Shown piece by piece: positions 4,045 through 27,386 of a stretch of 64,000 nucleotides of DNA (position 1 is the first letter of the stretch; the number at the start of each line of letters is the position of its first letter). This stretch comes from an uncultured Dehalococcoidales bacterium (GTDB taxonomy: Bacteria > Chloroflexota > Dehalococcoidia > Dehalococcoidales > UBA2162), in contig CAYVOV010000003.1 of assembly GCA_964453525.1 (NCBI GenBank), positions 2,099 to 66,098 on the forward strand. Direction: 5' to 3'. The position numbers and the translations under genes were made by a program. Under the pieces are notes generated by a model. The model was not told where the DNA came from. It ran no database searches and saw only the letters and a program-made list of their open reading frames with translations.

Positions 4045-5058
4045 CTTCGTGGTGAGCCGCGGAGGACTCGAACCTCCAACCGGCTGATTAAGAGGCGGGC
4101 ACACACGCTCAAACAGCTTAACAAACTGAGTGTCTCTCAGCTAGCGGAGTTAAGCAGTTTAAGCAAGGCTTACATCTCACAGGTTAAGCATGGAAAACGC
4201 TCGCCATCCCCGAAACTGCTCGAGATACTGGACGAGTTAGAAAGGCCAAAGAAGCCAGACAAAGACTACCTTGAGATATTCCTGCAATCCCGCCAAGCAA
4301 GGGGAGTAAGCCCAAAAACACTCCGGTATTACCAGGAAAGATTGTCTAAATTTGTCGATAGGGTCGAGTATACTCGCGCCACAAGGCAGGACATCGAGGA
4401 ATTTTTGAATTCAATCCCTCCGAACCAGTATGGCCTTGGTAATCGACACGCAACTTACCGTGCACTGAGAGCATTCTATAGGTGGCTGAGTAGCGAGTAT
4501 GAGTTACCCAATCCAGTAGCTGGAGTAGCCGCACCAATACTGGGTAAACCCATACTGCCCAGTCTCACCAGAGATCAGGTCGAGCTACTGATTCAGCATG
4601 CTGAGACTACACGTGACAGAGCCATAGTGGCACTATTTACTGAGAGTGGCTTGAGACTATCTGAGCTGGTCAGTATTACTCCAGATAAAATAGACTGGGA
4701 GTCACACACAGTGCAGATACTGGGTAAAGGCCGGAAAGAAGCTTTAGCGCCTTTCGGTGAGTTAACTGAAAAATATCTCAAGTCTTGGCTTCAGCAACAC
4801 CAGCCCAACGGTAACATCTGGGGACTCAACGAGTGGGGAATCGCCTCTATGCTCAGGAGACTGGAGTCAGCTACTGGAATACGATGTAATGCGCACGCCT
4901 TCAGAAGAACCTTCGCCTGCCTTCTTCGCAAGGCCGGTGTGGACGTAATGACTATCAAAGACTTGGGCCGGTGGGAAAGCCTAGAAATGGTGCAGAGGTA
5001 TACTAGATCGGTGAGATTCCAAGATAGCATGAGATTCTACAAAGCGCCACTTTCTTAA
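4045..5058 (+). CDS. tyrosine recombinase (integrase A) lacking its start codon in the integrated state
   Basis: Frame 1 is open from 4045 to the stop at 5056-5058. It encodes an XRE-like HTH (SVSQLAELSSLSKAYISQVKHGKR), a core-binding region and a catalytic domain (RLSE, HAFRRTFA, LGRWESLEMVQRYT). The first ATG/GTG/TTG is TTG at 4342. It is about two-thirds identical by eye to the integrase at 22840-23745. Confidence 0.8.
   Translation, partial: LRGEPRRTRTSNRLIKRRAHTLKQLNKLSVSQLAELSSLSKAYISQVKHGKRSPSPKLLEILDELERPKKPDKDYLEIFLQSRQARGVSPKTLRYYQERLSKFVDRVEYTRATRQDIEEFLNSIPPNQYGLGNRHATYRALRAFYRWLSSEYELPNPVAGVAAPILGKPILPSLTRDQVELLIQHAETTRDRAIVALFTESGLRLSELVSITPDKIDWESHTVQILGKGRKEALAPFGELTEKYLKSWLQQHQPNGNIWGLNEWGIASMLRRLESATGIRCNAHAFRRTFACLLRKAGVDVMTIKDLGRWESLEMVQRYTRSVRFQDSMRFYKAPLS
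4050..4094. repeat. distal att direct repeat (copy of tRNA-Lys nt 32-76)
   Basis: tggtgagccgcggaggactcgaacctccaaccggctgattaagag is identical 45/45 to 27311-27355. Confidence 0.9.
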
Positions 5059-11792: not shown

Positions 11793-11794
11793 TT

Positions 11795-13009
11795 TTAACC
11801 TCCATCAGAAATTGATAGTTTTATTAATCCAATTCGATGACCTCTTACTAGAACATAGCTTTCTCCTTGCGGTGGTGGGGTAAACGGCAACTCGGTATAA
11901 ATAGTCACCCCTGATTCTTCACGGTGTTCAATTATCCGTTCTAAACAAAGTGAGAATATTAAAGGTTGTATCCTCAAGTCCGTGCAAACGAGTGCCCGAA
12001 GAGGATAGATATCGATATATGTTTGTAATGAGCCGGACAATTTTTTATATGCAGATATTAATGACATCGTAAAATCATTTGAAACGTAAGACTGTCCATG
12101 ATGGGTAACTCCGGAAACAGAAGCCTCAGCGTTAAAAGACGGATCAGGCATGAAATCGCACGTCGAAAATATAACTCGTCCTGTAAAATCAGGATGAGAA
12201 GATGTTATAGCCACGCTGTAGAAATCTTGCGAACAACTAAATATATGCTGAAAAGTAACTGTATCAAAAAATAAGCCTTCTGATTTCAGGATGGCAGGCA
12301 CTACAATATTATCCTCTACTGTATCTACAATTTTCTTTACGTCAATATTTCGCATAGATGAAACACGATTCAGATACTCAACTTGTTCATCTACCTTTTC
12401 GTTGAATATGACAATTTTCTCCGCAGGGAAATCGATGGTTTTAAGCCTTGTAGTGCAGCTTTCGATTATTCTATTAGCCAACAGATCAGGATCAATAGGG
12501 AATTTCAGGCTTTGCCCAAGCTGTTTAATACTTGTTATATCAGGAATATACATTGGCGACTTGAGTAAACGTATAGTGAACGCTCTAAAGTAGGGATGAT
12601 TGTTCATCCATAAAAGTAATATAGAATCAAACGCTTTTCCACGACTATCCTTATATAAGCGTGCTATCTCCATACCTTTCTCTGTGACTTTGCAGGGCGT
12701 TTCTTTTAATCTTTCTACCTCGGACCTTTTACGAGGTAAAGGTCCCACTGTTATTAATCTAAGTTTATTTAGGTCTGTAAGAGCATCACGTGCTACTGTC
12801 CACATAACTTCACGTGATGGAGGAGCATGTCGTTTCGATGAGCTGTGAAGAGAACGGCGTACTTCATCAAATGTACAAGTGGATTTGGATAAGGAAATAA
12901 AACGGAGAGAATCAAGAAGCTGATCTATCCGTATCCTGGGGATAGAGTCTTTAATAATATCTTTATCCTGCATACAAATATTATATAATAATATGGGAGC
13001 GTTTGTCAA
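11795..13009 (-). CDS. hypothetical protein with N-terminal winged-helix-like segments
   Basis: 404-aa ORF (alternative start at 12973, MQDKDII). LNKLRLITVGPLPRKRSEVERLKETPCKVTEKGMEIA resembles a wHTH. First gene of the six-gene operon. Confidence 0.4.
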   Translation of the reverse strand: MTNAPILLYNICMQDKDIIKDSIPRIRIDQLLDSLRFISLSKSTCTFDEVRRSLHSSSKRHAPPSREVMWTVARDALTDLNKLRLITVGPLPRKRSEVERLKETPCKVTEKGMEIARLYKDSRGKAFDSILLLWMNNHPYFRAFTIRLLKSPMYIPDITSIKQLGQSLKFPIDPDLLANRIIESCTTRLKTIDFPAEKIVIFNEKVDEQVEYLNRVSSMRNIDVKKIVDTVEDNIVVPAILKSEGLFFDTVTFQHIFSCSQDFYSVAITSSHPDFTGRVIFSTCDFMPDPSFNAEASVSGVTHHGQSYVSNDFTMSLISAYKKLSGSLQTYIDIYPLRALVCTDLRIQPLIFSLCLERIIEHREESGVTIYTELPFTPPPQGESYVLVRGHRIGLIKLSISDGG

Positions 13010-13052
13010 TACCGTTTCATTAATTTTTGTGAATTTCTATTAATCTGGAAGG

Positions 13053-13081
13053 TTGACTTTTATCCGACAACTGAATATTAT
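13053..13081 (+). promoter_or_regulatory. sigma70-like promoter for the HTH/Hma-type operon
   Basis: TTGACT (13053-13058), 17-bp spacer, TATTAT (13076-13081). GGAGAG RBS lies before ATG 13115. Confidence 0.4.
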
Positions 13082-13114
13082 TACGACAACGGAACTTTTT
13101 GGAGAGAAGTTAGT

Positions 13115-13336
13115 ATGCCAGTTCTAGAAGATTATATAAGCGTTAATGAAGCTGCTGAGTTTCTCAAAGTTCATCCGGGCACTGTCAAGAGGCTTTGTCG
13201 TGAACGCAGGTTATCAGCCCACAAAGTCCATAATGGATGGCTAATCCACATTAACGATGTGCAGTCCTTTGCTAAGGAATATAACGGCCGGAGGGGAAGG
13301 CCAAGCAACATGGATATTAATAAAAGGGTAATTTGA
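13115..13336 (+). CDS. excisionase-family/MerR-like HTH DNA-binding protein
   Basis: ISVNEAAEFLKVHPGTVKRLCRERRLSAHKVHNGWLI matches the HTH_17/excisionase pattern. Its stop overlaps the helicase start (TGATG). Confidence 0.7.
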   Translation: MPVLEDYISVNEAAEFLKVHPGTVKRLCRERRLSAHKVHNGWLIHINDVQSFAKEYNGRRGRPSNMDINKRVI

Positions 13337-16300
13337 TGGCCAAACTTGAAGAACTGGTAGAAGGAGCCCTAGTCGAGGGAATAATTGCTGATAGCCCCGC
13401 TACTGTAATACATACGAAGTGGTTTGGTGAACAGGCTATAGAGCTAACGTACAAAAATGAACAAACGGGGACTGTCAGTAACCGTTTGTTATATCGATCA
13501 GATGAGGATGCACTCCGTCTCATAGAGACAACTTCTGCTTTGGTGTTTGATGGTGACGGCGAGACATTCCGATTAGCATCTGAAGCAAACCGCATTCGTC
13601 TCGCATACTTATTCGATCCAAGACTAGCTGTTCACGTTTCGCAAGTAGACCCATTGCCGCATCAAATAGCCGCCGTATACGAGGAAATGTTAATTAGACA
13701 ACCACTACGGTATCTCTTAGCTGACGATCCAGGTGCCGGTAAAACAATTATGGCTGGCCTATTTATAAAGGAGCTAATTCTTAGAGGAGACCTTGAAAGG
13801 TGCTTAGTCGTATGTCCTGCAAATCTCGCAGAGCAATGGCAAGATGAACTTAGCGAAAAATTCAAATTACACTTCGAGATTGTAGGGCGCGAACAAATAG
13901 AGAGTAGCCTCACCATTAATCCCTTTCTTGAAAAACCTTTCGTTATCAGCCGTATCGACCTTCTTAAACCGAGGAGAGATAAAAACGGTGAACTCGATGA
14001 ATCTAACCTTGATAGGTTAAAACAAGTGGAGTGGGACTTACTAGTTGTCGATGAAGCTCACAAAATGAGCGCCTCATTTGTTGGAGGAGATGTTAAATTA
14101 ACCGCGAGGTATAGGCTTGGTCAAATTCTGTGCGATCCACAGCATAGCCGTCATATCGTATTTCTCACTGCGACGCCTCATCATGGTAAAGAGGAAGATT
14201 TCCAGCTCTTCTTAGCTCTGCTAGACAAAGACCGCTTTGAAGGGCGCTTCAGAACAGGAGTTCATCGCGTAGATACCTCCGACATTATGCGACGGATGCT
14301 AAAGGAAGAACTTGTTGATTTCGAGGGGAAACCTTTATTTCCAGAGAGACGGGCGTATACAGTGAACTATGACCTGAGTCCATTAGAAGCACGGTTGTAT
14401 GCTGATGTAACTGAGTATGTACGTACTGAGATGAATAGAGCTGACGAGTTGGCAGAAGTAGGTTCACATCGTCGGACAGTGATTGGCTTTGCACTTACGG
14501 TTCTACAGAGACGCTTAGCCTCCTCACCGGAAGCTATATACCAATCCTTACGACGGCGTCGGGAGCGGCTGGAAAAAAGGATTGAGGAGGAAAGACATAA
14601 GAAGCAAGCAGCGGAGCTCGACCTTACTTCCGGACTTAGAGCAATTGACGAAGAGGAGATGGATGACCTTCCAGACAGAGAGACGGAAGAACTTGAAGAC
14701 CAAGTAGTTGATCTGGCATCAAATGCCCGTACTATCGCTGAACTTGAACTTGAGATTATCCGTTTAAAGGAACTAGAGAAGCTAGCTAAGGAGGTCAGAC
14801 AAAGTGACACCGACCGTAAGTGGGAGGAGCTTCGTGATCTGCTCTTGAATCGTGCTGAGATGTTTGACCAGAAGGGACGAAGAAGAAAGCTCATTATATT
14901 CTCTGAGCATCGGGACACCCTTAGGTATTTGGCTAGCAAAGTACGGAATCTGTTGGGTGATCCTACTGCAATAATTGAGATACATGGTGGGATGGGACGT
15001 GTAGAGAGAAGGAAAGCACAAAATACTTTTATTAACGACCCTACTGCTGAAATATTAATTGCCACTGATGCAGCAGGCGAGGGTATAAACCTACAACGCG
15101 CCCATCTTATGGTTAATTATGACCTTCCCTGGAATCCAAATCGTATCGAACAGAGATTTGGACGTATCCATCGTCTAGGACAGCGTGAAGTCTGTCATCT
15201 ATGGAATCTTGTTGCATATCAGACGCGTGAAGGTGCAGTCTTCCGTCGCCTTTTTGAGAAACTGGAGTCACAACGTCAAGCATTAAAGGATAAGGTATTT
15301 GATGTTCTAGGGAGAGTCTTTGACGAAATCCCACTGCGTAATCTTCTTATGGATGCAATTCGCTATGGAGACCAACCTGAAGTAAGAGCAAGGTTGGAAG
15401 AGCGAATCGATGAACTTATGAGTCCTGAACACTATAGAGAGCTTATTGAGCGATTTGCTTTGGCAACTGACACGATTGATACTACTCGTTTACAATCTCT
15501 GATGGAAGATATGGAGAGAGCTGAAGCGCTACGGCTCCAGCCCCACTTTATTGCATCCTTCTTTACAGATGCGTTTCAGCGACTAGGTGGCTCAATTAGA
15601 GAGCGGGAATCTCAGCGTTATGAAATCAGGCGGGTTCCACAAGAGATAATCAGGAGGGCCCGTCAAATCAGACGGGGGATCCCGCTGGTACACCGCTATG
15701 AACGAATAGTGTTTGAGAAAGAACGTATAAACGTAGATGAAAAACCCCCGGCTGAATTTGTAGCTCCAGGACATCCTCTGCTGGATGCCACAATTGACCT
15801 TACTTTGGAACGGCATAGTCAGCTTCTGCGTCGAGGCGCTCTTCTTGTTGATCCTAGGGAAGACGGGCCTAATACTTCAAGAGCCTTGTTATTTATTCAA
15901 CATGAGATTCACGATGGCAGAGTTGACAAGCAAGGACGAAACCGTACTGCCTCCAGGAAGCTGCATTTTGTAGAGATTTCTCAAAATGGGGAATCTCAGG
16001 ATGCTGGTGCTGCTCCCTATCTTGATTACCGATCATTAAATGATGATGAGGGAAAAGCGGTTAACCAACTTCTTCAACAGGCCTGGCTTCAAAAAGACAT
16101 TGAAGAGCAAGCTAAGGCTTATGCTATTGAATTCCTTGTGCCAAGACACTTTGAAGAAGTAAAAGCCTATCGGGAGTCGTTGGTATTGAAGACCATGGCA
16201 GCGGTGAAAGAACGCTTAACTAAGGAAATCCAATACTGGGATAAAAGGGCGGAGGAGTTGAAAGCTCAAGAACTAGCCGGTAAGAAGCCACGAATAAACT

Positions 16301-16881
16301 CTGCATTAGCACGCCGTCGTGCTGATGACCTCACTGACCGACTCCAGGCACGCATGAAAGAGCTCGAATTAGAAAGGCAACTGTCACCCCGGCCACCAGT
16401 GGTTGTCGGTGGTGCTCTTGTAGTTCCAGAGAAAGTGTTAGCACACATGCTAAATCGTCCTGTGCCAGACCGTGGGGGCGTAGAAAAAGATGTGGTAGAA
16501 GAGCTTGCTATGAAGGCGGTAGAAGAAGCCGAGAGAAAGACTGGGCGAATTCCTACTCGTATGCCGGTCAATAACCCTGGTTACGATATCGAATCAAGAG
16601 ATCCTGAGACTGGGCATCTACATTTTATTGAGGTAAAAGGACGCCAGGCTGATGCCGACATCGTACATATTACGAAGAACGAATGGCTTGTCGCCTTGAA
16701 CAAGAGGGGCATGTTTATTCTAGCTATTGGACGTGTTCGTGATAACCAAGTGGAGTCATTGCATTATATCCGTGACCCGATGGCCCGCGCTGTAGCCGGT
16801 GATCTGACTTTTGGTGTAACGGGTATTGATCTGAATATTAATGAACTACTGAAGTTGGAGACTGTGGAGGCTATACGATGA
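13333..16881 (+). CDS. SNF2-family helicase with C-terminal DUF3883 (PD-(D/E)xK-like) domain; Hma-type helicase
   Basis: DDPGAGKT, VVDEAHKM, LTATPHHG, ATDAAGEGINLQ, QRFGRIHRLGQ. C-terminal GYDIESRD...FIEVKGR...ITKNEW. Confidence 0.85.
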   Translation: MMAKLEELVEGALVEGIIADSPATVIHTKWFGEQAIELTYKNEQTGTVSNRLLYRSDEDALRLIETTSALVFDGDGETFRLASEANRIRLAYLFDPRLAVHVSQVDPLPHQIAAVYEEMLIRQPLRYLLADDPGAGKTIMAGLFIKELILRGDLERCLVVCPANLAEQWQDELSEKFKLHFEIVGREQIESSLTINPFLEKPFVISRIDLLKPRRDKNGELDESNLDRLKQVEWDLLVVDEAHKMSASFVGGDVKLTARYRLGQILCDPQHSRHIVFLTATPHHGKEEDFQLFLALLDKDRFEGRFRTGVHRVDTSDIMRRMLKEELVDFEGKPLFPERRAYTVNYDLSPLEARLYADVTEYVRTEMNRADELAEVGSHRRTVIGFALTVLQRRLASSPEAIYQSLRRRRERLEKRIEEERHKKQAAELDLTSGLRAIDEEEMDDLPDRETEELEDQVVDLASNARTIAELELEIIRLKELEKLAKEVRQSDTDRKWEELRDLLLNRAEMFDQKGRRRKLIIFSEHRDTLRYLASKVRNLLGDPTAIIEIHGGMGRVERRKAQNTFINDPTAEILIATDAAGEGINLQRAHLMVNYDLPWNPNRIEQRFGRIHRLGQREVCHLWNLVAYQTREGAVFRRLFEKLESQRQALKDKVFDVLGRVFDEIPLRNLLMDAIRYGDQPEVRARLEERIDELMSPEHYRELIERFALATDTIDTTRLQSLMEDMERAEALRLQPHFIASFFTDAFQRLGGSIRERESQRYEIRRVPQEIIRRARQIRRGIPLVHRYERIVFEKERINVDEKPPAEFVAPGHPLLDATIDLTLERHSQLLRRGALLVDPREDGPNTSRALLFIQHEIHDGRVDKQGRNRTASRKLHFVEISQNGESQDAGAAPYLDYRSLNDDEGKAVNQLLQQAWLQKDIEEQAKAYAIEFLVPRHFEEVKAYRESLVLKTMAAVKERLTKEIQYWDKRAEELKAQELAGKKPRINSALARRRADDLTDRLQARMKELELERQLSPRPPVVVGGALVVPEKVLAHMLNRPVPDRGGVEKDVVEELAMKAVEEAERKTGRIPTRMPVNNPGYDIESRDPETGHLHFIEVKGRQADADIVHITKNEWLVALNKRGMFILAIGRVRDNQVESLHYIRDPMARAVAGDLTFGVTGIDLNINELLKLETVEAIR

Positions 16882-19610
16882 CCTACCGCAAGAAGTTAAT
16901 AGAGGTAGCCATGCCTCTTGATGCTATTAACAACGCATCTGCTCACGAAAAAGCAGTGCGGCGTGGTCATCCATCCGCGCTCCATTTGTGGTGGGCGCGA
17001 AGACCTCTCGCTGCTTGTAGAGCAATACTCTTTGCCTCATTGGTTGATGATCCCAGTAATGACTTGCCCGAAAATGAGGCAAATAAGGAGCGAGAACGCT
17101 TGTTCCGTATACTTGAAGACCTTGTGAGATGGGAAAACATTAATAACGAAACGGTAATCGGTATGGCGAGGGAAGAGATAATTAGGAGTACGAGAGATAA
17201 TCCTCCTTCACTCATAGACCCCTTTTGTGGTGGAGGTGCTATACCGCTGGAAGCTCAACGCCTGGGATTAGAAGCCTATGCCTCTGACTTGAATCCAGTG
17301 GCTGTTCTGATTACCAAGGCACTTATTGAAATACCAGCTAAGTTTGTCGGAAAACCTCCGGTGAATCCGGATTCAAAGAAAGGTACCGGTAGTACTGCTG
17401 GCTGGAGAGGTGCTTCAGGTTTGGCAGCTGACGTGCGTTTCTACGGCCAATGGATGCACAATGAGGCGTGGAAGCGTATTGGTCATCTGTATCCCAAAGG
17501 ACCAAATGGGGAGACAGTCATCACTTGGCTATGGACAAGAACAGTAAAATGCCCCAATCCTGCATGTGGTACTCAAATGCCTTTAGTGCGGTCCTTCTGG
17601 CTATCCACGCAGAAAGGCAAAAGGGCTTGGGTAAAACCTATCTTGGATTTAGATAACAAGACAGTGCGGTTCGAAACGAGTATAAGTGACAGTGATGCAC
17701 CACAAGGAACAGTCAACCGTTTGGGAGCTCGCTGTATCCTATGTGGTACGGCAGTATCCTTTGACTACATTAGAGCAGAGGGTAAAGCAGGATGCATAAA
17801 TAGGCGGTTAATGGCAATGGTTGGTGAGAACCAACACGGACGTATCTATTTGTCTCCAGACAATAATCACGAAAGTATCGCGGTTTCTGCTGATCCTGAC
17901 TGGATTCCCGATACAGAGTTACCAGAACAAGCGCTCGGATTTCGTGTTCAATTATATGGTATTTCGAGGCATGCAGAACTTTTCACAAGCCGTCAGCTTG
18001 TATTCCTCTCTGTGCTATGTGATCTAGTAGAGGAGGCCCATCTTCAGGTTATTGAACACTCTGGGAGAGATGAAGAATATGCTAATGCGGTTACCACTTA
18101 CTTAGGTCTAACAGCAAGTAAAATAGTTGATTCATGTAATGCATTCTGTCGCTGGCGGTCCGATCATGCTACAGCAACCAACCTGTTCGCTCGTCCCACA
18201 TTGTCCATGCTATGGGACTTTGCCGAGGTAAACCCATTTCAATTTGTCAACTACGCAGATCTTGCATCTAAGAGTGCAGCCGTATTGGAAACACTCAGCT
18301 TAGGGAAGTTGCATAGTGTACCAGCTGGAGCAGTCAGTCAACTGGACGCCACACAAGCGCTTCCAGTTTCTATACCAGCTCTCATTGCCACTGACCCTCC
18401 ATATTACGATAATATCGGTTATGCAGACCTCTCTGATTTCTTTTATATATGGCTCCGTCGCATGTTGAAGAGCATTTATCCTGAATTGTTTTCAACCTTG
18501 CTAACACCAAAGAATCAAGAGCTTATAGCATCACCATACCGATTTGACGGAAGCAAACAGAAAGCAAAGGAGCATTTCGAAAATGGACTCGAGAAAAACT
18601 TTGTGCTTATGCGAACAAAGGCTGCCTCGGAGTATCCAGTTACACTCTATTATGCTTTCAAGCAAGCTGAGAATGACAATGGTAGCGACGCAAATAGTAA
18701 ATCAGAAGTTCCTACTCTTGCACAGGCATCCACAGGCTGGGAGACCATGCTTCAGGGCCTGTTAAGTGCTGGCTTTCAGATTACGGCTACTTGGCCAATG
18801 AGGACAGAGCTAGGTACGAGGATGCGTGGGATTTCGTCTAATGCCCTTGCTTCATCAGTCGTACTTGCTTTTAGACTCAAGCAGAAAGATGCGCCAATTG
18901 CTACACGAAGGGAATTTTTGGCTGCCTTGCGAAAGGATTTACCTCAAGAATTGAGAGTACTCATGAATGGTCGGGTAGCCCCGGTTGATCTAGCGCAGGC
19001 ATCCATTGGCCCAGGAATGGCCATCTTTTCTCGCTACAGCAAGGTACTAGAGGCGAATGGTTCAGCCATGACGGTGAGAACCGCTCTTCAGGAGATTAAT
19101 TATTTCCTAGAAGACTACCTAGCACAGCAGGAGGGAGACCTAGACGTAGAGAGCCAGTTCTGCGTTGTTTGGTTTCAACAATATGGCTCTAGAGAAGGCC
19201 CCTTTGGAGAGGCGGATGTGCTGTCAAGAGCTAAGGATGTCAGTGTTGATGGTCTGGCTCGTCTTGGTCTGGTCGATGCTGAAAGAGGTAAAGTACATCT
19301 AACCCTGCGAGAGAGTTATGAAGATGATTGGGATCCCAGAAATCAGTCGCGGATCACTGCTTGGGAAGCTTGCCAACGCCTAGTGTGGAGCCTGAATGAG
19401 AACGGGGAGCAGGAAACAGGTCGCTTGGCAAGACGATTGGGTGGTGTAGCTGAGCAAGCAAGACAACTGGCATATCGTCTCTACGGTATTGCTGACCGTA
19501 AGGGATGGGCTGAAGAGGCTTCCGGCTATAACGCTTTAGTATCTTCTTGGTCTGAAATACAAAAGGCAGCCGCTGCTGCCGCTGAGGAAGCTCAAGGGAG
19601 GATGATGTGA
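16878..19610 (+). CDS. DUF1156-family DNA methyltransferase (N6A/N4C type) with Zn ribbon
   Basis: N-terminal EKAVRRGHPSALHLWWARRPLAACRA. DPFCGGGAIPLEA (SAM site). CPNPACG...CILCG. IATDPPYYD motif IV. ATGA overlap with the helicase stop. Confidence 0.85.
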   Translation: MTYRKKLIEVAMPLDAINNASAHEKAVRRGHPSALHLWWARRPLAACRAILFASLVDDPSNDLPENEANKERERLFRILEDLVRWENINNETVIGMAREEIIRSTRDNPPSLIDPFCGGGAIPLEAQRLGLEAYASDLNPVAVLITKALIEIPAKFVGKPPVNPDSKKGTGSTAGWRGASGLAADVRFYGQWMHNEAWKRIGHLYPKGPNGETVITWLWTRTVKCPNPACGTQMPLVRSFWLSTQKGKRAWVKPILDLDNKTVRFETSISDSDAPQGTVNRLGARCILCGTAVSFDYIRAEGKAGCINRRLMAMVGENQHGRIYLSPDNNHESIAVSADPDWIPDTELPEQALGFRVQLYGISRHAELFTSRQLVFLSVLCDLVEEAHLQVIEHSGRDEEYANAVTTYLGLTASKIVDSCNAFCRWRSDHATATNLFARPTLSMLWDFAEVNPFQFVNYADLASKSAAVLETLSLGKLHSVPAGAVSQLDATQALPVSIPALIATDPPYYDNIGYADLSDFFYIWLRRMLKSIYPELFSTLLTPKNQELIASPYRFDGSKQKAKEHFENGLEKNFVLMRTKAASEYPVTLYYAFKQAENDNGSDANSKSEVPTLAQASTGWETMLQGLLSAGFQITATWPMRTELGTRMRGISSNALASSVVLAFRLKQKDAPIATRREFLAALRKDLPQELRVLMNGRVAPVDLAQASIGPGMAIFSRYSKVLEANGSAMTVRTALQEINYFLEDYLAQQEGDLDVESQFCVVWFQQYGSREGPFGEADVLSRAKDVSVDGLARLGLVDAERGKVHLTLRESYEDDWDPRNQSRITAWEACQRLVWSLNENGEQETGRLARRLGGVAEQARQLAYRLYGIADRKGWAEEASGYNALVSSWSEIQKAAAAAAEEAQGRMM

Positions 19611-19611
19611 C

Positions 19612-22413
19612 ATGGTTACTAAACTAACACCTTGGAAAGATGCTATAACACCACACCCAGATGTAGCTTCTGGTAGATATCTGCAGGCAGAATTTGCTGC
19701 TGACTTAGCTCAGGTACTTGAGGGTCGTGCTGATCCTGAGTACCAAGCTCCTGTCGAGTTCTATAATCGCACCTACATAACCTCCGGAATCAGGGGTCTG
19801 TTACGCTCAGCACTGGAGCGTCTTACTGGAAGTTGTGGCGAACCAGTAATCCAACTCAAAACCTCCTTCGGCGGCGGCAAGACACACAGTATGCTGGCGC
19901 TTTATCACCTGCTATCTGGTAATAAGCAACTGCTGAAGCTCAATCCGATTAAAGACTTATTAAAAGAAGTTGAGCTGGAAACTATCCCTAAGGCGGCATG
20001 TGCAGTGTTGGTTGGAACATACCTGGATCCGACAAGAGGGCAGCCTAAGGAGGAACTCGGGGGAGGTGAACTACGTACTTTATGGGGCGAGATGGCTTTT
20101 CAGCTCGCCGGGGTGAAGGGCTATCGTCTAGTCGATGAAGCAGACGCTAGTGGGAATGCTCCAGGTGGTAGGACTCTTGACCAACTGTTCAGTATGGTCG
20201 GCCCGTGTGTAATCTTAATAGATGAGCTAGTAGCATATATACGCAATATTGGACGAAGCCGTGGTCTACCTGGAGGAACCTTTGATTCTAACATGACATT
20301 CATACAGAATCTAACTGAATCCCTAAAAAGGGCTCCGAATGCTGTACTGGTTGCTGCCATACCGGAATCAAACATCGAGGTTGGTGGCCCAGAGGGTCTG
20401 CAGGTTCTACAACGTGTTGAGAAGACCTTTGAGCGTATATCAATTACCTGGACACCAGCAGAGGCTTACGAATCTTTTGAAATTGTTAGACGTAGGCTTT
20501 TTAGCGAGATACAAGATGAAGGCGCTAGGGAATCAACATGTGCTGCTTTTAGTCGCCTTTATCGCAGCAATTCAAATGATTTTCCAATCGAGTGCCGAGA
20601 GGTTGAATATGAAAGGCGGATGCAGGCCAGTTACCCAATTCATCCTGAAGTCTTTGATCGCCTATACGATGATTGGTCAACCTTGGAACGATTCCAGCGG
20701 ACAAGAGGTGTCCTAAGGCTGATGGCAGCTGTTATCCATCAACTATGGCAAGCAGGTGATGCCTACCCAATGATTATGGCAGGCTCCCTTCCCCTGTATG
20801 CTCCTCCGGTAAGAGATGAATTACTGAGATACCTTAATGACCAATGGACTCCTGTATTAAACGAAGTGGATGGCCTAGAATCTGAAGCTGCCCGAATTGA
20901 TAGTGAAAACCAAAGATTTGGCCAAATTCAGGCTGCCCGACGCCTTGCACGTACGGCATTTTTAGGAAGTGTGCCATTCAAGGCTACACGAGGTATTGAA
21001 GACGTGCGTGTTCGGCTTGGTGTTGTACAACCGGATGAATCAATATCTACCTATAATGATGCACTTGGACGCTTGCAGCAACGGCTTCAGTTTCTATACA
21101 CATCTGGTCAAGGTAGATATTGGTTTGATGTACAGCCTAATTTAACTCGTACTGTGGCCGATCGCTCATCACGTGTTTCAGAAAAAGAAATATATCACCA
21201 TCTTGAAGATGAACTGATTGGAATTATACGTAGTAAAGGTGATTTTGCTGGCATACATGTATGTCCTGAGAATACAGCGGACGTTCCGGATGAACCAGCG
21301 GCTCGCTTAGTAGTTCTCTCTCCTAGTTATCCCCACAAGCGTGCTAATGGTGAAAGTGCTGCTTTAACCCAGGCAAAACAAATTTTGGAGAATCGAGGTA
21401 ACTCACCAAGACGCTATAGGAACATGTTGGTCTTTGTTGCTGTTGATGAAGATGCCATCCAGATTCTAACGGACGAAACCAGACGCTATTTAGCCTGGCT
21501 TTCGATTCAGAAGGATTCCTTGGCATTGAACCTTGACAGAGCGCAGGAAAGACAAGTTAAAGAGGCTGTCGACAAGGGAGATAGGACTATTGCTGCTCAG
21601 CTTGACTCTGCTTATCAATGGGCCCTATCACCTAAACAAGAAGGAACCGGCCCACTTGAATGGGAAACTATCTTGTTGAAGGGTAATGACCTTGGGTCGA
21701 CGGGAGGATTAGTACAACGTGCATCGTATAGATTACAGAGCCAAGAGCTTCTCATTACAAGCTGGTCTCCAATTCATTTGTGTCGAGAATTAGACCAGTA
21801 TTTATGGAAAGAAGGGCAATCTCATATTAGTGTCAAACAGCTCTGGGAATACTTTGCCACATATCCATATCTCTCAAGACTTAGAGACCACGATGTTCTT
21901 TTAATGACTATTAAAGCAGGTGTTGTAACACGCGATTTCTTCGGATACGCAACTGGAGTTAAAGAAAAGAAAGGGTCAGAAGCCCCAGATTACATAGGAC
22001 TTACATTTGGGGGAATACCCCCTGGTGTTTACTATGATGAGAGCAGCGTATTAGTGAGGCCAAAAGTCGCTGAAAAAAGCATAAGAAAGGCTGAGATGAC
22101 CAGTGAAGAAGGTACTCAAGTTAAAACTGGTGAGACTGGAACGAAAGAGGAAGTAGAAGATAGGGTCGTTGTAAAAGCACCAAAGCGATTTTATGCTACC
22201 GTTCGCCTGAACCCAATGAGAATGTCAAGTGAAGCTGGAACCATTGGTCAGGAAGTTATACAACACTTACAAGCACTGCTTGGTGCAGATGTCCAAATTA
22301 CCCTAGATATTGAGGCGAATGTACCAGAAGGTGTTCCGGACCAAATCATTCGAATTGTGTCTGAAAACGCTCGGACTCTAAAATTTGAGAGCTTCGGATT
22401 TGAGGAAGAATAA
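19612..22413 (+). CDS. DUF499-family ATPase
   Basis: N-terminal LTPWKDAITPHPDVASGRYLQAEFAADLAQV. Walker A SFGGGKTHS. Walker B VILIDELVAY. Starts 1 nt after the methylase stop. Confidence 0.8.
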   Translation: MVTKLTPWKDAITPHPDVASGRYLQAEFAADLAQVLEGRADPEYQAPVEFYNRTYITSGIRGLLRSALERLTGSCGEPVIQLKTSFGGGKTHSMLALYHLLSGNKQLLKLNPIKDLLKEVELETIPKAACAVLVGTYLDPTRGQPKEELGGGELRTLWGEMAFQLAGVKGYRLVDEADASGNAPGGRTLDQLFSMVGPCVILIDELVAYIRNIGRSRGLPGGTFDSNMTFIQNLTESLKRAPNAVLVAAIPESNIEVGGPEGLQVLQRVEKTFERISITWTPAEAYESFEIVRRRLFSEIQDEGARESTCAAFSRLYRSNSNDFPIECREVEYERRMQASYPIHPEVFDRLYDDWSTLERFQRTRGVLRLMAAVIHQLWQAGDAYPMIMAGSLPLYAPPVRDELLRYLNDQWTPVLNEVDGLESEAARIDSENQRFGQIQAARRLARTAFLGSVPFKATRGIEDVRVRLGVVQPDESISTYNDALGRLQQRLQFLYTSGQGRYWFDVQPNLTRTVADRSSRVSEKEIYHHLEDELIGIIRSKGDFAGIHVCPENTADVPDEPAARLVVLSPSYPHKRANGESAALTQAKQILENRGNSPRRYRNMLVFVAVDEDAIQILTDETRRYLAWLSIQKDSLALNLDRAQERQVKEAVDKGDRTIAAQLDSAYQWALSPKQEGTGPLEWETILLKGNDLGSTGGLVQRASYRLQSQELLITSWSPIHLCRELDQYLWKEGQSHISVKQLWEYFATYPYLSRLRDHDVLLMTIKAGVVTRDFFGYATGVKEKKGSEAPDYIGLTFGGIPPGVYYDESSVLVRPKVAEKSIRKAEMTSEEGTQVKTGETGTKEEVEDRVVVKAPKRFYATVRLNPMRMSSEAGTIGQEVIQHLQALLGADVQITLDIEANVPEGVPDQIIRIVSENARTLKFESFGFEEE

Positions 22414-22446
22414 TCATTGCATTCGGACACTGCAGTTTGCCGTAAC

Positions 22447-22821
22447 TTAGCTTCCGATATGCCGCGCGCCCAATTCTTCTATTTCTTTTCGAGACCGAAC
22501 CACATTTTGGGGTAAACCAACAACCTTTGACTCTGAATAGGCATTACTACTAACTATCGTCCTTACTTGCTTTCCAATACTGCGACTATACTGGGTAAGG
22601 TCTTCCATTATTCTTAGTTGCTTAGCGTATAGGTCTACTATTGGCTTGAGCAAAGTTACCACCTGCTTGACTGCGTCTTCCACTTCACTCAGTCTCTGCT
22701 CAGTGGCTAGTCGAGCAGGTGTGTCTTGGGTAGTAGTCATCTGGTGGACAAACGTTTTGTGTCCCCTCAAACCTTGGGTATTCTTAAATTCTCTTCCGCA
22801 AATTTCACACTTAACACTCAT
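22447..22821 (-). CDS. classical C2H2 zinc-finger protein
   Basis: KCEICGREFKNTQGLRGHKTFVH fits Cx2Cx3Fx5Lx2Hx4H exactly. Starts 18 nt after the integrase B stop, on the same strand. Confidence 0.6.
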   Translation of the reverse strand: MSVKCEICGREFKNTQGLRGHKTFVHQMTTTQDTPARLATEQRLSEVEDAVKQVVTLLKPIVDLYAKQLRIMEDLTQYSRSIGKQVRTIVSSNAYSESKVVGLPQNVVRSRKEIEELGARHIGS

Positions 22822-22839
22822 TAGATTCCTCCTTAATAA

Positions 22840-23745
22840 TTATGTTTTCTCGTTTAAGAGAGAAGCCGGATAAAACTTCAGGCTATCATCAAAATCTACT
22901 GAACGGGTATACCGCTGCACCATTTCCAGGGATTCCCATCGTCCTAGATCTTTAATGGTCATGGTGTCTACTCCGGCTTTCCGAAGCAGACAGGCAAAGG
23001 TTCTCCTTAATGAATGAGCGTTACAGGTTATGCCTGTCTCTTTCTCAAGCCTGCGGAGCATCGAAGCGATTCCCCATCCAGTCAGCCCCCAAATGTTGCT
23101 ATCGCCAGGTTGGTACTCCTGTAGCCAGGCTCTCAGGTATTTTTCTGTCAGGTCACCGAATGCTGCATAAGCTTCCTTCCTCCCTTTTCCCAGTATTCGA
23201 ATAGTCCTGTTTGACCAGTTGATATGTCCAAGTAGAATATTCGCAAGCTCCGATAACCTTAATCCGCTCTCAACGAACAGGGCAACAATGGCTTTATCCC
23301 TTACGGAAGCCGCTTTTTCGATAAGGATAAGCACCTGCTCTTTTACTAACGCAGGAAATATAGGTTTACCCAGGATTGGAGCTGGCATACCCTCCATTGG
23401 ATTCGGAATGCCGTACTCACGGTTCAACCATTTATAGAGAGCTTTGATTGCCCGGTATGAAGCATGACGATTTCCCAATCCGTATTTATTAGGAGGAATA
23501 GTATTCAAGTACCGTTGTATATCTTGGCGGGTGGCATGCAGGATATCGACAGCACGGACTAACTTTGATAAGCGCTCACGATAATACCTGAAGGTCTTCG
23601 GGCTTACCCCCATTGATTCCCGCGATTGCAGGAATAACTCTAGGTAGTCCTTGTCCTCCACTTTGTGGCGCTTTAAATAGTCTCTTAGCGACATATAACG
23701 CTCTTGCAATAATGTTTGTGCCAACCGTGAGCTTACATAACGCAC
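22840..23745 (-). CDS. tyrosine recombinase (integrase B), intact
   Basis: 301 aa with its own ATG. RLSE, HSLRRTFA, LGRWESLEMVQRYT. Paralog of integrase A. Confidence 0.9.
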   Translation of the reverse strand: MRYVSSRLAQTLLQERYMSLRDYLKRHKVEDKDYLELFLQSRESMGVSPKTFRYYRERLSKLVRAVDILHATRQDIQRYLNTIPPNKYGLGNRHASYRAIKALYKWLNREYGIPNPMEGMPAPILGKPIFPALVKEQVLILIEKAASVRDKAIVALFVESGLRLSELANILLGHINWSNRTIRILGKGRKEAYAAFGDLTEKYLRAWLQEYQPGDSNIWGLTGWGIASMLRRLEKETGITCNAHSLRRTFACLLRKAGVDTMTIKDLGRWESLEMVQRYTRSVDFDDSLKFYPASLLNEKT

Positions 23746-23840
23746 GCTCCAGCTATAAATATGATATACTAGATTTAGAATATGAGGGGACGAATAATGT
23801 CTGTTAAATGGTTAAACTCTGGCTAATTTAGGGATAAAAA

Positions 23841-24467
23841 ATGAAACCACGGAAACCTAGTTGGTTTATAACGAATGTGCCTTGGGAGACCAAAAAGACA
23901 ATCTGGAAACTCTGGGAATCCGGAGTTACTATTATCGATACACTTGCCTATCTTGATGAGGATTCGCAAGTACACCCTGTGTTTAGTCGGCATACAATCA
24001 CCAGAGTGAGAAAGGAGTTAACAAAACTTCCTCTCGGTAAAATCACACAGCTACTATCTGAACTACCAGAAATAAAAGAATTTGTTGTAGAACTCAGACC
24101 TGACTACGCAGAGTATGAGTTGCATGAAGAGGAACAACGAGTTCAAGATTCTAACGAGCTTACGACTACAGCCTTAGTAATTGCTTCCAATCTTGGGAAA
24201 TATCGCAATGAGAACGCTGCTTATCGAGGTACTGCTATGGATACGGTGGGAGAACTAGTATATGGAGGCCAGTGGATAGGTGAACAACTGGCTAAGTTGG
24301 GAGACGTAGATAGGGCTTCAGCCGCCGAACTGCTGAAGCAACTGAAAGAGGAAGGGGAATTTCTTGAATTGGTAGCTATTGAGGATTGGGCTGAATTGAC
24401 AGACGATAAAATTACCGAGAACTTTATTCAGCGACTTATCGCTAGAGCACACAGAGGTAATTTCTAG
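23841..24467 (+). CDS. hypothetical acidic protein
   Basis: 208-aa ORF, no family recognised. Confidence 0.35.
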   Translation: MKPRKPSWFITNVPWETKKTIWKLWESGVTIIDTLAYLDEDSQVHPVFSRHTITRVRKELTKLPLGKITQLLSELPEIKEFVVELRPDYAEYELHEEEQRVQDSNELTTTALVIASNLGKYRNENAAYRGTAMDTVGELVYGGQWIGEQLAKLGDVDRASAAELLKQLKEEGEFLELVAIEDWAELTDDKITENFIQRLIARAHRGNF

Positions 24468-24552
24468 AGTGTATATCTTACAATTATTAATGAAAGTGAC
24501 AGCTAATTTTGAAGCTAGTATATTTATAGCTGTAGATAATATACGCTAACTG

Positions 24553-27270: not shown

Positions 27271-27380
27271 AAGGAGAACCGTTAAAAATGAGGAAAATTA
27301 GCCTCAAAAATGGTGAGCCGCGGAGGACTCGAACCTCCAACCGGCTGATTAAGAGTCAGCTGCTCTGCCAGTTGAGCTAG
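27271..27380 (+). other. detached 5' module of integrase A (RBS, ATG, 8 codons) reading antisense through tRNA-Lys
   Basis: AGGAG at 27272-27276, ATG at 27288. MRKISLKN then enters the 45-bp repeat in frame. In the integrated state the frame stops at TAG 27378-27380 (30 codons). Confidence 0.7.
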
Positions 27381-27386
27381 CGGCCC
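27311..27386 (-). tRNA. tRNA-Lys: tRNA-Lys (anticodon CUU), CCA encoded
   Basis: Manual cloverleaf: acceptor GGGCCGC/GCGGCTC, D arm GCTC-AACTGGCA-GAGC, anticodon arm GCTGA-CTCTTAA-TCAGC, T arm GGAGG-TTCGAGT-CCTCC, ACCA tail. 76 nt. Confidence 0.9.

What the first reader, a model, noticed from the sequence alone, without database searches (positions are those of the whole stretch)
13115..22413. Hma-type helicase/methylase/ATPase system preceded by a translationally coupled excisionase-family HTH
SNF2+DUF3883 helicase, DUF1156 methylase (DPPY) and DUF499 ATPase form the trio proposed as a putative defence system by comparative genomics (defence-island surveys and the PADLOC Hma class). To my knowledge it has little mechanistic characterisation. 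All junctions here are coupled: TGATG, ATGA, and a 1-nt gap. A 73-aa HTH_17 gene is fused into the operon. No dedicated nuclease is present other than the DUF3883 domain.
Basis: partly seen in the sequence, partly recalled or inferred. Interest (0 to 1): 0.6.

Follow-up and report, generated by a model that had tools for sequence, protein, structure and literature searches.

The report
Hma defence operon with portable regulator
This is an intact, already-named anti-phage system (Hma, now also called a type-1 BREX-related system); it sits on a tRNA-Lys genomic island, and its first gene is a small DNA-binding protein whose gene and conserved promoter recur in front of at least a dozen other kinds of restriction-type defence operons, so it is most likely a swappable on/off controller and not an excisionase.

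Summary
Four co-oriented genes lie at 13115-22413: a 73-aa HTH_17 protein, HmaA (SNF2 helicase with a C-terminal PD-(D/E)xK nuclease), HmaB (DUF1156 methylase, DPPY motif) and HmaC (DUF499 AAA+ ATPase). The junctions are TGATG, ATGA and a 1-nt gap. All three Hma proteins match the PADLOC Hma models over their full length (1509, 1050 and 1052 bits), and the catalytic motifs are intact.

The system itself is not new. Hma was named in 2021. A Halomonas HmaA was shown in 2024 to defend against T4 through a nickase domain. The family was reclassified in 2026 as the type-1 DUF499-centred BREX-related system.

The new part is the HTH gene. It belongs to a tight family (55-82% identity to the window protein, 241 members). 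In about 35 metagenomic loci it is the first gene of different restriction/modification-type operons: Hma, BREX types 3 and 4, type I RM, methylase plus PLD-helicase, Dpd-like, Dnd-like, Druantia-like and others. It always follows the same promoter, which carries a 14-bp element over the start site (TTACGnnAACGGAA). Variants of this element track HTH subfamilies. No integrase is linked to the gene.

I read it as a portable autoregulatory leader cassette, analogous to RptR, BrxR and C proteins. That function is inferred, not shown.

The parts
13053..13081 (+). Sigma-70-type promoter: -35 TTGACT (13053-13058), 17-nt spacer, -10 TATTAT (13076-13081).
   Evidence: Promoter scan, 10 of 12 matches. 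The -35 and -10 hexamers are conserved across 37 distinct homologous loci while the spacer is not.
13081..13095 (+). Candidate operator TTACGACAACGGAAC. It overlaps the end of the -10 hexamer and the expected transcription start. It reads as an imperfect palindrome TTACG-N4-CGGAA, or as tandem ACGnnA hexamers. A second CGACAAC lies at 13065-13071 in the spacer.
   Evidence: About 1.8-2 bits per position across 37 distinct loci, against 0-0.6 bits in the spacer. Variants track HTH subfamilies, including perfect palindromes ACGATATCGT in L134 and GCGATATCGC in L137. Binding has not been tested.
13115..13336 (+). 73-aa HTH_17 (MerR/Xis-like winged helix) leader gene with a basic C-terminal GRRGRP tail. 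Predicted autoregulator of the operon.
   Evidence: Pfam HTH_17, E 7e-12. TIGR01764, 38.6 bits. AF2 model b-a-a-b-b-a, pLDDT 76.8. Nearest folds are RacA, BldC, Pukovnik Xis and RdfS. Family alignment with 16 invariant residues. It is the first gene of about 35 defence operons.
13336..16881 (+). hmaA: SNF2-family translocase with a C-terminal PD-(D/E)xK (NOV_C/DUF3883) nuclease. Predicted restriction effector.
   Evidence: PADLOC HmaA, 1509 bits, full length. Pfam SNF2-rel_dom, Helicase_C and NOV_C. Motifs GAGKT133, DEAH239, D1084/E1099/K1101/E1116 correspond to the residues essential in Halomonas HmaA (PMC11232893).
16878..19610 (+). hmaB: DUF1156 N6-adenine-type DNA methyltransferase with a large insert between motif I and motif IV. 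Predicted self-marking enzyme and specificity determinant.
   Evidence: PADLOC HmaB, 1050 bits. Pfam DUF1156, E 7e-25. FCGGG at 116 and DPPY at 506.
19612..22413 (+). hmaC: DUF499 ORC/Cdc6-like AAA+ ATPase without an N-terminal HEPN fusion. Predicted loader and coordinator of methylation and restriction.
   Evidence: PADLOC HmaC, 1052 bits. Pfam DUF499. Walker A GGGKT at 86-90 and Walker B ILIDE near 200. Homologues in L130/L131 carry HEPN_Swt1; this one does not.
4050..4094 (+). Left copy of the 45-nt direct repeat (a copy of the tRNA-Lys 3' half). Distal att site of the island that carries the operon.
   Evidence: Exact 45-nt match to 27311-27355.
27311..27386 (-). tRNA-Lys(CTT) gene. Its 3' 45 nt (27311-27355) form the right copy of the direct repeat, so the island spans about 23.3 kb.
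   Evidence: ARAGORN; k-mer repeat search.

Best explanation
The locus is a complete, apparently functional Hma system (type-1 DUF499-centred BREX-related system). It is cargo on a 23-kb island integrated at tRNA-Lys.

Proposed working of the system:
- HmaB, a DPPY adenine methylase with an embedded target-recognition insert, marks short sites on host DNA.
- HmaC, an ORC/Cdc6-like AAA+ ATPase, loads and coordinates HmaB and couples site recognition to restriction.
- HmaA translocates on unmarked DNA with its SNF2 motor and nicks or cuts it with its C-terminal PD-(D/E)xK domain.

Proposed control of the operon:
- All four genes are transcribed from one near-consensus promoter (13053-13081).
- The first product, the 73-aa winged-helix HTH_17 protein, binds the 14-bp element that overlaps the -10 hexamer and the start site (13081-13095). 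This represses its own operon and holds a potentially self-toxic system at a low, homeostatic level.
- The promoter-operator-HTH unit is a portable cassette. The same unit heads many other restriction/modification-type defence operons in sediment Desulfobacterales and Chloroflexota.

What is shown and what is inferred:
- Shown here: gene content, motifs, cassette conservation, and the association with defence cargo.
- Shown elsewhere for homologues: HmaA nickase activity and T4 defence; ATPase-loaded hemimethylation in the type-2 sister system.
- Inferred: methylation-dependent discrimination in this system, HTH binding to the element, and the sign of the regulation.
For: Identity of the system:
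- Full-length PADLOC HmaA/B/C matches, Pfam domains and intact catalytic motifs.
- There is no PglZ, DUF3780, PLD or HsdS gene.
- NCBIfam Gao_RL-type equivalog models score far below their cut-offs: 119 against 1000, and 166 against 1200.

Literature:
- HmaA alone defends against T4 and needs D1084, E1104, K1106 and E1121 (PMC11232893).
- BR type-1 definition and RM-like model (PMC12839542).
- MANTIS mechanism.

Regulator:
- The family has 47 close hits (58-82% identical to the window protein) with the single sequence and 241 with a profile.
- It is the first gene, on the same strand and 0-170 nt ahead, of Hma in at least 13 contigs (window, L001, L013, L017, L022-24, L026, L033, L035, L037, L048, L130/131).
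- It is also the first gene of BREX-3-like (L004, L032), BREX-4 (L134), type I RM (L005, L040, L132), large methylase plus PLD-SNF2 (L042, L044/45, L047, L137), SNF2 plus methylase (L014), NgoFVII-PLD (L030, L034, L039), Dpd-like (L043), Dnd-like (L009), Druantia-like (L006, L041), Vsr (L031) and GHKL ATPase (L027, L029) operons.
- Every cargo that could be classified is of the restriction/modification type.
- The promoter and the TTACGnnAACGGAA element are conserved while the spacer and upstream DNA are not.
- Four operator variants track four HTH subfamilies.
- The HTH tree interleaves cargo types, so the cassette and the cargo recombine.
- No integrase sits beside the HTH in loci with long flanks.
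- Other Hma loci carry other leaders in the same position: a CopG-family gene 18 nt upstream in Methylomonas and a WYL-domain gene about 830 nt upstream, with an opposite-strand ORF between, in Rhodobacter. The position therefore looks like a regulator slot.
- Functional precedents are RptR (PMC12255303) and MADS mad1, an accessory gene grouped with 'widespread regulators' in that paper's detection model, whose deletion had limited effect on defence.
Against: - No binding, transcription or methylation data exist for this locus or for any member of this HTH family.
- The Halomonas result shows that HmaA works without HmaB or HmaC against T4 in E. coli. That does not fit a simple methylation-gated model.
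- The element over the start site could instead act in the mRNA leader. A weak U-tract/SD hairpin exists in some loci, but it is inconsistent.
- Operator-protein covariation is confounded by phylogeny: each variant is essentially one clade.
- The sign of regulation (repressor or C-protein-like activator) cannot be read from sequence.
- The HTH/hmaA overlap (TGATG) is specific to this window; relatives have gaps of 2-66 nt.
Confidence: 0.7

Rival explanations
1. The HTH_17 protein is a genuine excisionase (recombination directionality factor) for the tRNA-Lys island. Its position ahead of hmaA is incidental or couples defence expression to excision.
For: The protein matches the excisionase-family domain TIGR01764. 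Its fold matches Pukovnik Xis, RdfS and Tn916 Xis. The operon sits on an island bounded by 45-nt att repeats with two tyrosine recombinases inside.
Against: The gene lies about 8 kb from the left recombinase (4213-5052) and about 9.5 kb from the right one (22843-23745). Close homologues (55-82% identical to the window protein) sit ahead of defence operons with no integrase within up to 10 kb (L033, L035, L047, L048, L130, L132, L134), some of them among housekeeping genes (L132). The conserved partner is a promoter and operator, not an att site. The nearest folds also include the non-recombination regulators BldC and RacA.
Confidence: 0.07
2. The HTH is a C-protein-like controller: an activator or biphasic switch. 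It would delay or gate expression of the nuclease when the operon enters a new host, rather than act as a simple repressor.
For: It has the same genomic logic as RM controller proteins: a small DNA-binding protein as first gene, with a toxic nuclease encoded before the methylase. The cassette accompanies horizontally moving systems across phyla.
Against: The promoter hexamers are near consensus and strongly conserved, which argues against dependence on an activator. The conserved element overlaps the -10 hexamer and +1, a typical repressor position. All genes share one transcript, so the leader cannot order nuclease and methylase expression in time.
Confidence: 0.15
3. The system does not discriminate by methylation. 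HmaA alone would be an infection-triggered nickase of the abortive or dormancy type, and HmaB and HmaC would be accessory or serve other roles.
For: Halomonas HmaA alone protects E. coli from T4 with an Abi-like growth phenotype (PMC11232893).
Against: The three genes are tightly conserved and translationally coupled. HmaB keeps an intact DPPY site and HmaC keeps its Walker motifs. [quoted passage not shown] The HTH cassette is otherwise found only with modification-based systems.
Confidence: 0.15
4. The conserved 14-nt element acts in RNA, as a 5' leader signal for translation or stability, and the HTH has another target.
For: The element lies at the predicted 5' end of the transcript. Some loci can form a small hairpin around the Shine-Dalgarno sequence.
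Against: Predicted hairpins are weak (0 to -8.6 kcal/mol), and about a fifth of the loci folded have none at all (0.0 kcal/mol). The element is conserved in sequence, is (near-)palindromic, and varies with HTH subfamily. This is the pattern expected of a protein-binding DNA site.
Confidence: 0.08

Closest known systems
Hma system (PADLOC; Payne et al. 2021), also called type-1 DUF499-centred BREX-related (BR) system (NAR 2026, PMC12839542)
   Same: It has the same three genes in the same order and on the same strand. HMM matches are full length. The helicase-PD-(D/E)xK fusion, the DUF1156 DPPY methylase and the DUF499 AAA+ ATPase are all present. There are no embedded genes (37% of Hma loci have none).
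   Different: It has a dedicated HTH_17 leader gene and a conserved promoter/operator, which the Hma/BR papers I read do not describe. HmaC lacks the HEPN fusion present in about 56% of type-1 BR taxa.
Halomonas meridiana HmaA (PMC11232893)
   Same: It has the same SNF2 plus NOV_C architecture and the same four catalytic residues (D1084, E, K, E).
   Different: In Halomonas the hma genes are interrupted by Septu and other genes, and HmaA was tested alone. Here the operon is compact and coupled. No experiment exists for this locus.
MANTIS / Gao_RL (BR type-2; bioRxiv 10.64898/2026.09.23.753747)
   Same: It has a homologous DUF499 ATPase and DUF1156-type methylase, and probably the same logic of ATPase-loaded site methylation plus a motor-nuclease.
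   Different: There is no MtsB (DUF3780/3870). The nuclease is PD-(D/E)xK, not PLD. NCBIfam equivalog scores are far below the cut-offs.
RptR, first-ORF repressor of type I RM defence islands (PMC12255303, PDB 9R2Z)
   Same: It is a small (about 75 aa) DNA-binding protein encoded as the first gene of restriction-type defence operons. Its binding site in its own promoter is conserved along with the protein.
   Different: The sequence and fold are unrelated: RptR is a four-helix dimer, and a profile search of the PDB gave no match. The operator differs (TAGCTA repeats), as does the taxonomic range (Gammaproteobacteria). The cargo range here is much wider.
MADS MAD1 (NCBIfam NF047737) and BldC/RacA/Xis-type MerR-like winged helices
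   Same: It has an HTH_17-type winged helix, is a small single-domain protein, and is the first gene of a methylation-associated defence operon (MAD1). BldC shows that this fold can act as a transcription regulator on repeated sites.
   Different: It scores only 24 bits against the MAD1 model, whose cut-off is 80. It is about 20% identical to BldC and RacA. It has an invariant KRLCRE helix, a HNGWLI wing and a GRRGRP tail of its own.
BrxR/CapW (WYL) and RM controller (C) proteins
   Same: They are transcription factors dedicated to defence operons and found with several system types.
   Different: They have different folds (WYL-wHTH with a sensor domain; XRE-type HTH_3). The protein here has no sensor domain.

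Membership tests
Hma (PADLOC definition) | HmaA, HmaB and HmaC each present once, matched by the family HMMs | tested here: met
   PDLC00659, 1509 bits (1-1168 of 1176). PDLC00661/00660, 1050/1046 bits. PDLC00662, 1052 bits.
Hma (PADLOC definition) | All hma genes on one strand, adjacent (three or fewer embedded genes), none a pseudogene | tested here: met
   Contiguous intact ORFs on the + strand with ATGA overlap and a 1-nt gap.
Type-1 BREX-related (BR) system | Swi2/Snf2 helicase carrying an active C-terminal PD-(D/E)xK nuclease | tested here: met
   SNF2-rel_dom, Helicase_C and NOV_C. D1084, E1099, K1101 and E1116 conserved.
Type-1 BREX-related (BR) system | DUF1156-headed N6-methyltransferase with the target-recognition insert inside the catalytic core | tested here: met
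   DUF1156 at residues 11-78. Motif I FCGGG at 116 and motif IV DPPY at 506, about 385 residues apart.
Type-1 BREX-related (BR) system | DUF499 ORC/Cdc6-type AAA+ ATPase with Walker motifs | tested here: met
   DUF499, E 1e-27. GGGKT at 86-90. ILIDE near 200.
Type-1 BREX-related (BR) system | N-terminal TUDOR domain, internal inactive REase and alpha+beta domain in the helicase; C-terminal RRM in the ATPase | not tested
   No structure model was made for the large proteins. This is implied only by the full-length HMM match.
Type-2 BR / MANTIS (Gao_RL) | DUF3780/3870 co-regulator gene, PLD-helicase effector, equivalog-level match of ATPase and methylase | tested here: not met
   No such ORF. 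No PLD domain in HmaA. NF042963 scores 119 against a cut-off of 1000, NF042962 scores 166 against 1200, and NF042964 scores 162 against 1100.
Type-3 BR / BREX | PglZ and iSTAND (BrxB/BrxF) genes; helicase without nuclease | tested here: not met
   No PglZ or BrxB-like ORF in 13115-22413. BrxC model only E 1e-6.
Type I / type III restriction-modification | HsdS specificity subunit with HsdM/HsdR, or a Mod/Res pair | tested here: not met
   No Methylase_S, HsdM_N or HSDR_N hits. Only generic ResIII/DEAD motor hits in HmaA. No free ORF that could encode an S subunit.
DISARM | DrmA (helicase) and DrmB (DUF1998) with DrmD or DrmMI | tested here: not met
   HmaA matches DrmD models only over the motor: 360 bits against a cut-off of 610. 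No DUF1998 gene.
Excisionase / recombination directionality factor | Excisionase-family winged-helix DNA-binding domain | tested here: met
   TIGR01764, 38.6 bits against a cut-off of 28.8. Fold matches to Xis and RdfS.
Excisionase / recombination directionality factor | Genetic linkage to its integrase and att sites; stimulates excision | tested here: not met
   The gene is about 8 kb and about 9.5 kb from the two island recombinases in the window. No integrase near homologues with flanks of up to 10 kb. Excision activity is not testable here.
RptR family | Sequence or structure homology to RptR (PDB 9R2Z) | tested here: not met
   A profile search of all PDB sequences gave no significant hit; the best E was 0.08, to an unrelated tRNA ligase. 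The predicted fold has a beta wing, unlike the all-helical RptR.
MADS MAD1 | Equivalog-level match to NF047737 | tested here: not met
   24.3 bits against a cut-off of 80. PADLOC mad1 E 3e-4. It shares the domain type only.
Defence-operon autoregulator (functional class) | Binds an operator in its own promoter and changes transcription | not testable with these tools
   Supported indirectly by the conserved element at -10/+1 and its covariation with HTH subfamilies.

The most novel reading that the evidence does not exclude
The promoter-operator-HTH_17 unit is a mobile 'ignition' cassette for DNA-modification-based immunity. It would be exchanged by recombination between at least a dozen system types and across phyla (Desulfobacterota, Chloroflexota). 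Because the operator is shared, one small protein could co-regulate every such system in a cell, forming a defence regulon. Such a regulon could respond to a common cue or be hijacked by phages.
Probability: 0.25. Interest if true: 0.7.

Novelty: new variant of a known kind. Interest (0 to 1): 0.45.

Why it matters
The Hma/BR-1 system is a routine member of a family that is already named and partly characterised, so that part adds little.

The leader cassette is more useful. Regulation of restriction-like defence systems is poorly understood, and only a few dedicated regulators are known (C proteins, BrxR/CapW, RptR). Here one small regulator family and its operator are found in front of Hma, BREX, type I RM, Dnd/Dpd-like, Druantia-like and PLD-helicase systems.

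This gives three practical things:
- a simple marker for finding defence operons in uncultured anaerobes, a form of guilt by leader;
- a compact, testable protein-operator pair;
- evidence that regulatory and effector modules of immunity recombine independently.

Tried and rejected
- Megablast of 11000-24000 against all complete E. coli genomes found no match. The source is not enterobacterial.
- tblastn of the HTH against 72,556 plasmids found only three distant hits at about 40% identity. The tight family is absent from cultured plasmids.
- Viral contigs contain no HTH relative. The 70 hits to the bare DNA motif are, by my own rough estimate for a collection of this size (no shuffle control was run), about what chance would give, so there is no evidence that phages carry or mimic the cassette.
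- A second exact motif copy in the window (57798-57811) lies inside a 1119-aa ORF with no promoter or HTH, and I judged it chance.
- The 5'-UTR hairpin idea failed: structures are weak and inconsistent across loci.
- I searched for att-like direct repeats immediately flanking the HTH-Hma block (12700-24600) and found nothing meaningful. The real att repeats lie at 4050 and 27311.
- I searched for a conserved element downstream of the cargo that could mark a cassette 3' end and found none.
- The integrase and zinc-finger genes next to hmaC are not found next to other family loci.
- RptR and MAD1 membership were tested and not met.


Full report
**1. Observation**

The region 13115-22413 holds four co-oriented ORFs.
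- The first ends in TGA at 13334-13336 and overlaps the ATG of the second at 13336 (TGATG).
- The second and third overlap by ATGA at 16878-16881.
- The third and fourth are separated by one base (TGA-c-ATG).

Pfam gives the following:
- HTH_17 for the 73-aa protein (E 7e-12);
- SNF2-rel_dom, Helicase_C and NOV_C (the former DUF3883) for the 1181-aa protein;
- DUF1156 plus weak adenine-methylase hits for the 910-aa protein;
- DUF499 for the 933-aa protein.

The PADLOC models HmaA, HmaB and HmaC match end to end with 1509, 1050 and 1052 bits.

Catalytic motifs are intact:
- HmaA has GAGKT (133), DEAH (239), and the PD-(D/E)xK residues D1084, E1099, K1101 and E1116.
- HmaB has FCGGG (116) and DPPY (506).
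- HmaC has GGGKT (86) and ILIDE (near 200).

No free ORF that could encode a specificity subunit or a second nuclease lies inside the block.

**2. What the three large genes are**

The literature held in the library shows that this trio is no longer obscure.
- Hma was named from association statistics in 2021 (PMC8565338).
- In 2024 a Halomonas HmaA alone was shown to protect E. coli from T4. Its NOV_C domain was shown to be a Mn2+-dependent nickase needing D1084, E1104, K1106 and E1121 (PMC11232893). The window protein conserves all four.
- A 2024 preprint showed that 63% of Hma loci carry other defence genes embedded between the hma genes. This locus has none.

The window fits type 1: three genes and a helicase fused to an active PD-(D/E)xK domain. 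It lacks the DUF3780 gene and PLD nuclease of type 2, and the PglZ and iSTAND genes of type 3. Its ATPase is the variant without the N-terminal HEPN domain. By contrast, the related loci L130/L131 and plasmid loci from Meiothermus and Chlorohelix carry HEPN_Swt1.

NCBIfam's equivalog models for the type-2 (Gao_RL) proteins score far below their cut-offs. A September 2026 preprint reconstituted that type-2 system (MANTIS). It reports hemimethylation of asymmetric 6-bp sites by the methylase. This needs the DUF499 ATPase to load the methylase, and a helicase-nuclease then carries out restriction. I use this as the best available model for the roles of HmaB and HmaC. It is an inference by homology, not a result for this locus.

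**3. Genomic setting**

- The 45 nt at the 3' end of the tRNA-Lys gene (27311-27355) are repeated exactly at 4050-4094. The operon therefore rides on a 23.3-kb island integrated at tRNA-Lys.
- Inside the island are two inverted paralogous tyrosine recombinase genes, at 4213-5052 (+) and 22843-23745 (-), 67% identical.
- A third recombinase gene (2959-3939) lies just outside the left repeat.
- Divergent from the Hma promoter is a six-gene operon (5239-12973, minus strand). It encodes a HelD-like UvrD-family helicase, a DUF2779/Cas4-like nuclease and four proteins with no family match.

**4. The HTH gene is the informative part**

A database search with the 73-aa protein returned 47 close homologues of 54-126 aa, 58-82% identical to it. 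A profile search returned 241. Some are named by NCBI as coming from Chloroflexota or Dehalococcoidales. The closest Hma locus found is in a Desulfobacterales MAG.

I looked at the genomic context of as many members as the tools allowed. In every locus with enough downstream sequence, the HTH is the first gene, on the same strand and 0-170 nt ahead, of a restriction/modification-type operon:
- Hma in at least 13 contigs, two of them with an embedded gene between hmaA and hmaB;
- BREX type-3-like (L004, L032);
- type-4 BREX with PAPS reductase, BrxC, PglZ and BrxL (L134);
- type I RM (L005, L040, L132);
- a 1090-1490-aa Eco57I/MmeI-like methylase with a PLD-SNF2 helicase (L042, L044/45, L047, L137);
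- SNF2 plus methylase (L014);
- NgoFVII-like PLD nucleases (L030, L034, L039);
- a 7-deazaguanine (Dpd-like) cluster (L043);
- a Dnd-like cluster (L009);
- Druantia-like genes (L006, L041);
- Vsr (L031);
- GHKL ATPases (L027, L029).

Upstream genes are unrelated from locus to locus and include housekeeping genes (L132, L130). No integrase is adjacent. Clustering the HTH sequences interleaves the cargo types: Hma appears in three separate HTH clades and BREX-3-like in two. The leader and the cargo have therefore recombined repeatedly.

**5. A conserved promoter and operator travel with the gene**

Aligning the 75 nt upstream of 37 distinct loci shows three blocks conserved at about 1.8-2 bits per position. 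They are separated by unconserved spacer:
- TTGACT(T);
- TAATAT, 16-18 nt downstream of the first block;
- a 14-nt element, TTACGnnAACGGAA, immediately abutting the second block.

In the window these are 13053-13058, 13076-13081 and 13081-13094. The element covers the end of the -10 hexamer and the expected start site, which is the classic place for a repressor.

The element can be read as an imperfect palindrome (TTACG-N4-CGGAA) or as tandem ACGnnA hexamers. Its variants follow HTH subfamilies:

| HTH subfamily | Element variant |
|---|---|
| HNGWLIH wing | TTACGnnAACGGAA |
| HN(A/T)WLIR | ACGnCATCGGAA |
| HNMWLI(H/N) | ACGATA(C/T)CGTAA (perfect palindrome ACGATATCGT in L134) |
| HWET...HN(G/K)WLIH | TTGCGATAnCG(A/C)TA (GCGATATCGC in L137) |

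This is what a co-evolving protein-operator pair looks like. However, each variant is essentially one clade, so the covariation is suggestive only.

DNA similarity between cassettes that lead different cargos starts 10-20 nt upstream of the -35 hexamer and stops near the GRRGRP codons at the 3' end of the HTH gene.

**6. The protein**

- An AlphaFold model built on 28 family members (pLDDT 76.8) gives beta-alpha-alpha-beta-beta-alpha followed by a disordered basic tail.
- The best structural neighbours are RacA, the developmental regulator BldC, Pukovnik Xis, RdfS and Tn916 Xis. These are the MerR-like winged helices that include both excisionases and pure transcription or architectural factors.
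- Sixteen residues are invariant, concentrated in the second helix (T23, K25-R29) and the wing (K37, N40, W42-I44). A GRRGRP motif resembling an AT-hook follows.
- The profile finds no solved structure by sequence, including RptR.
- The MAD1 equivalog model scores 24 bits against a cut-off of 80.

**7. Is the leader a core Hma gene?**

It is not. A Planctomycetota Hma locus has a transposase upstream. Among plasmid-borne Hma loci (184 records) the upstream position varies:
- a CopG-family regulator 18 nt upstream in Methylomonas;
- a WYL-domain protein nearby in Rhodobacter;
- an unannotated 77-aa ORF 565 nt away in Chlorohelix;
- nothing in Meiothermus.

The slot ahead of hmaA therefore looks like an interchangeable regulator position. 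The HTH_17 cassette is one lineage-restricted occupant.

**8. Mechanism and confidence**

- I am nearly certain of the identity: Hma, type-1 BR, intact, on a tRNA-Lys island.
- I think an RM-like mode is likely, with HmaB marking self, HmaC loading and coordinating, and HmaA restricting. It is not proven, and the Halomonas result that HmaA suffices against T4 is a real caveat.
- I think the HTH is a transcriptional autoregulator of the operon with probability of about 0.75, and a repressor rather than an activator with about 0.6.
- The excisionase reading is unlikely (about 0.07).

**9. Novelty and score**

The system itself is a new member of a known kind. The HTH_17 promoter-operator leader was not mentioned in the Hma, BR or RptR papers I read, and it did not turn up in my full-text searches. 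It is, however, a variant of a known theme: dedicated regulators of defence operons such as C proteins, BrxR/CapW, RptR and mad1. A specialist would find its breadth of cargo and its portability interesting but not startling. Interest 0.45.

Noticed in passing
window 4050-4094 and 27311-27355: There is an exact 45-nt direct repeat of the 3' half of tRNA-Lys(CTT). It delimits a 23.3-kb genomic island that carries the Hma operon and its neighbours.
   Followed up: yes
window 4213-5052 (+), 22843-23745 (-), 2959-3939 (-): Two tyrosine recombinase genes, 67% identical at protein level, lie in inverted orientation inside the island and bracket about 17.8 kb. A third, more distant recombinase lies just outside the left att repeat, which suggests tandem islands at the same tRNA.
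   Followed up: partly
window 5239-12973 (- strand): A six-gene operon runs divergent from the Hma promoter. It encodes a HelD-like UvrD-family helicase (780 aa; 313 bits to HelD_BACSU, below cut-off), a DUF2779/Cas4-like nuclease (489 aa), and proteins of 231, 269, 436 and 392-404 aa with no Pfam, PADLOC or NCBIfam match (the 231-aa ORF was not run against NCBIfam). It is a possible uncharacterised defence system. A DUF2779 gene also sits next to the HTH-Hma locus L035.
   Followed up: partly
window 22447-22821 (-) and 24863-26250 (+): Other island cargo includes a 124-aa protein with a weak C2H2 zinc-finger hit next to the integrase, an HTH_3+NYN protein (240 aa) and a SET-domain protein (204 aa).
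   Followed up: no
L046 777-1554 and L055 2429-3411: The HTH gene is truncated after about 45-50 codons and joined directly to an internal fragment of hmaC. These are deletion remnants of HTH-Hma loci that retain the promoter.
   Followed up: partly
L023 4140-5777; L048 7650-8027: Genes with no family match (545 aa and 125 aa) are embedded between hmaA and hmaB. This matches the published 'embedding' habit of Hma, and the genes are candidate defence genes.
   Followed up: no
L001, L013, L016-L021, L026, L035-L037, L042, L044, L049: about 20-45 nt upstream of the -35 hexamer: A second conserved upstream element, GCTA(A/G)ATTGTGCAATGCC (near-palindromic ATTGnnCAAT), is present. In the P0033-type loci, sequence identity begins abruptly at this element and the DNA further upstream is unrelated. 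This looks like the left edge of the transferred cassette or a second binding site. The window has only a degenerate version.
   Followed up: partly
window 57798-57811: A second exact copy of TTACGGAAACGGAA lies inside a 1119-aa ORF, with no promoter or HTH gene nearby. It is probably chance (3 of 100 shuffles give two or more hits).
   Followed up: yes
L058 (Methylomonas sp. DH-1 plasmid) 6741-6938; L059 (Rhodobacter sp. CZR27 plasmid) 5125-6123: Hma operons in cultured bacteria carry different small regulators in or near the leader position: a CopG-family protein 18 nt upstream of hmaA, and a WYL-domain protein about 830 nt upstream.
   Followed up: partly
L132 10001-20228: An HTH-led type I RM operon has ORF6N, Mrr_cat, DUF3800 and GmrSD genes embedded between hsdM/hsdS and hsdR. 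It lies among housekeeping genes (dnaB, rplI, holB) with no mobile-element genes in 10 kb.
   Followed up: no
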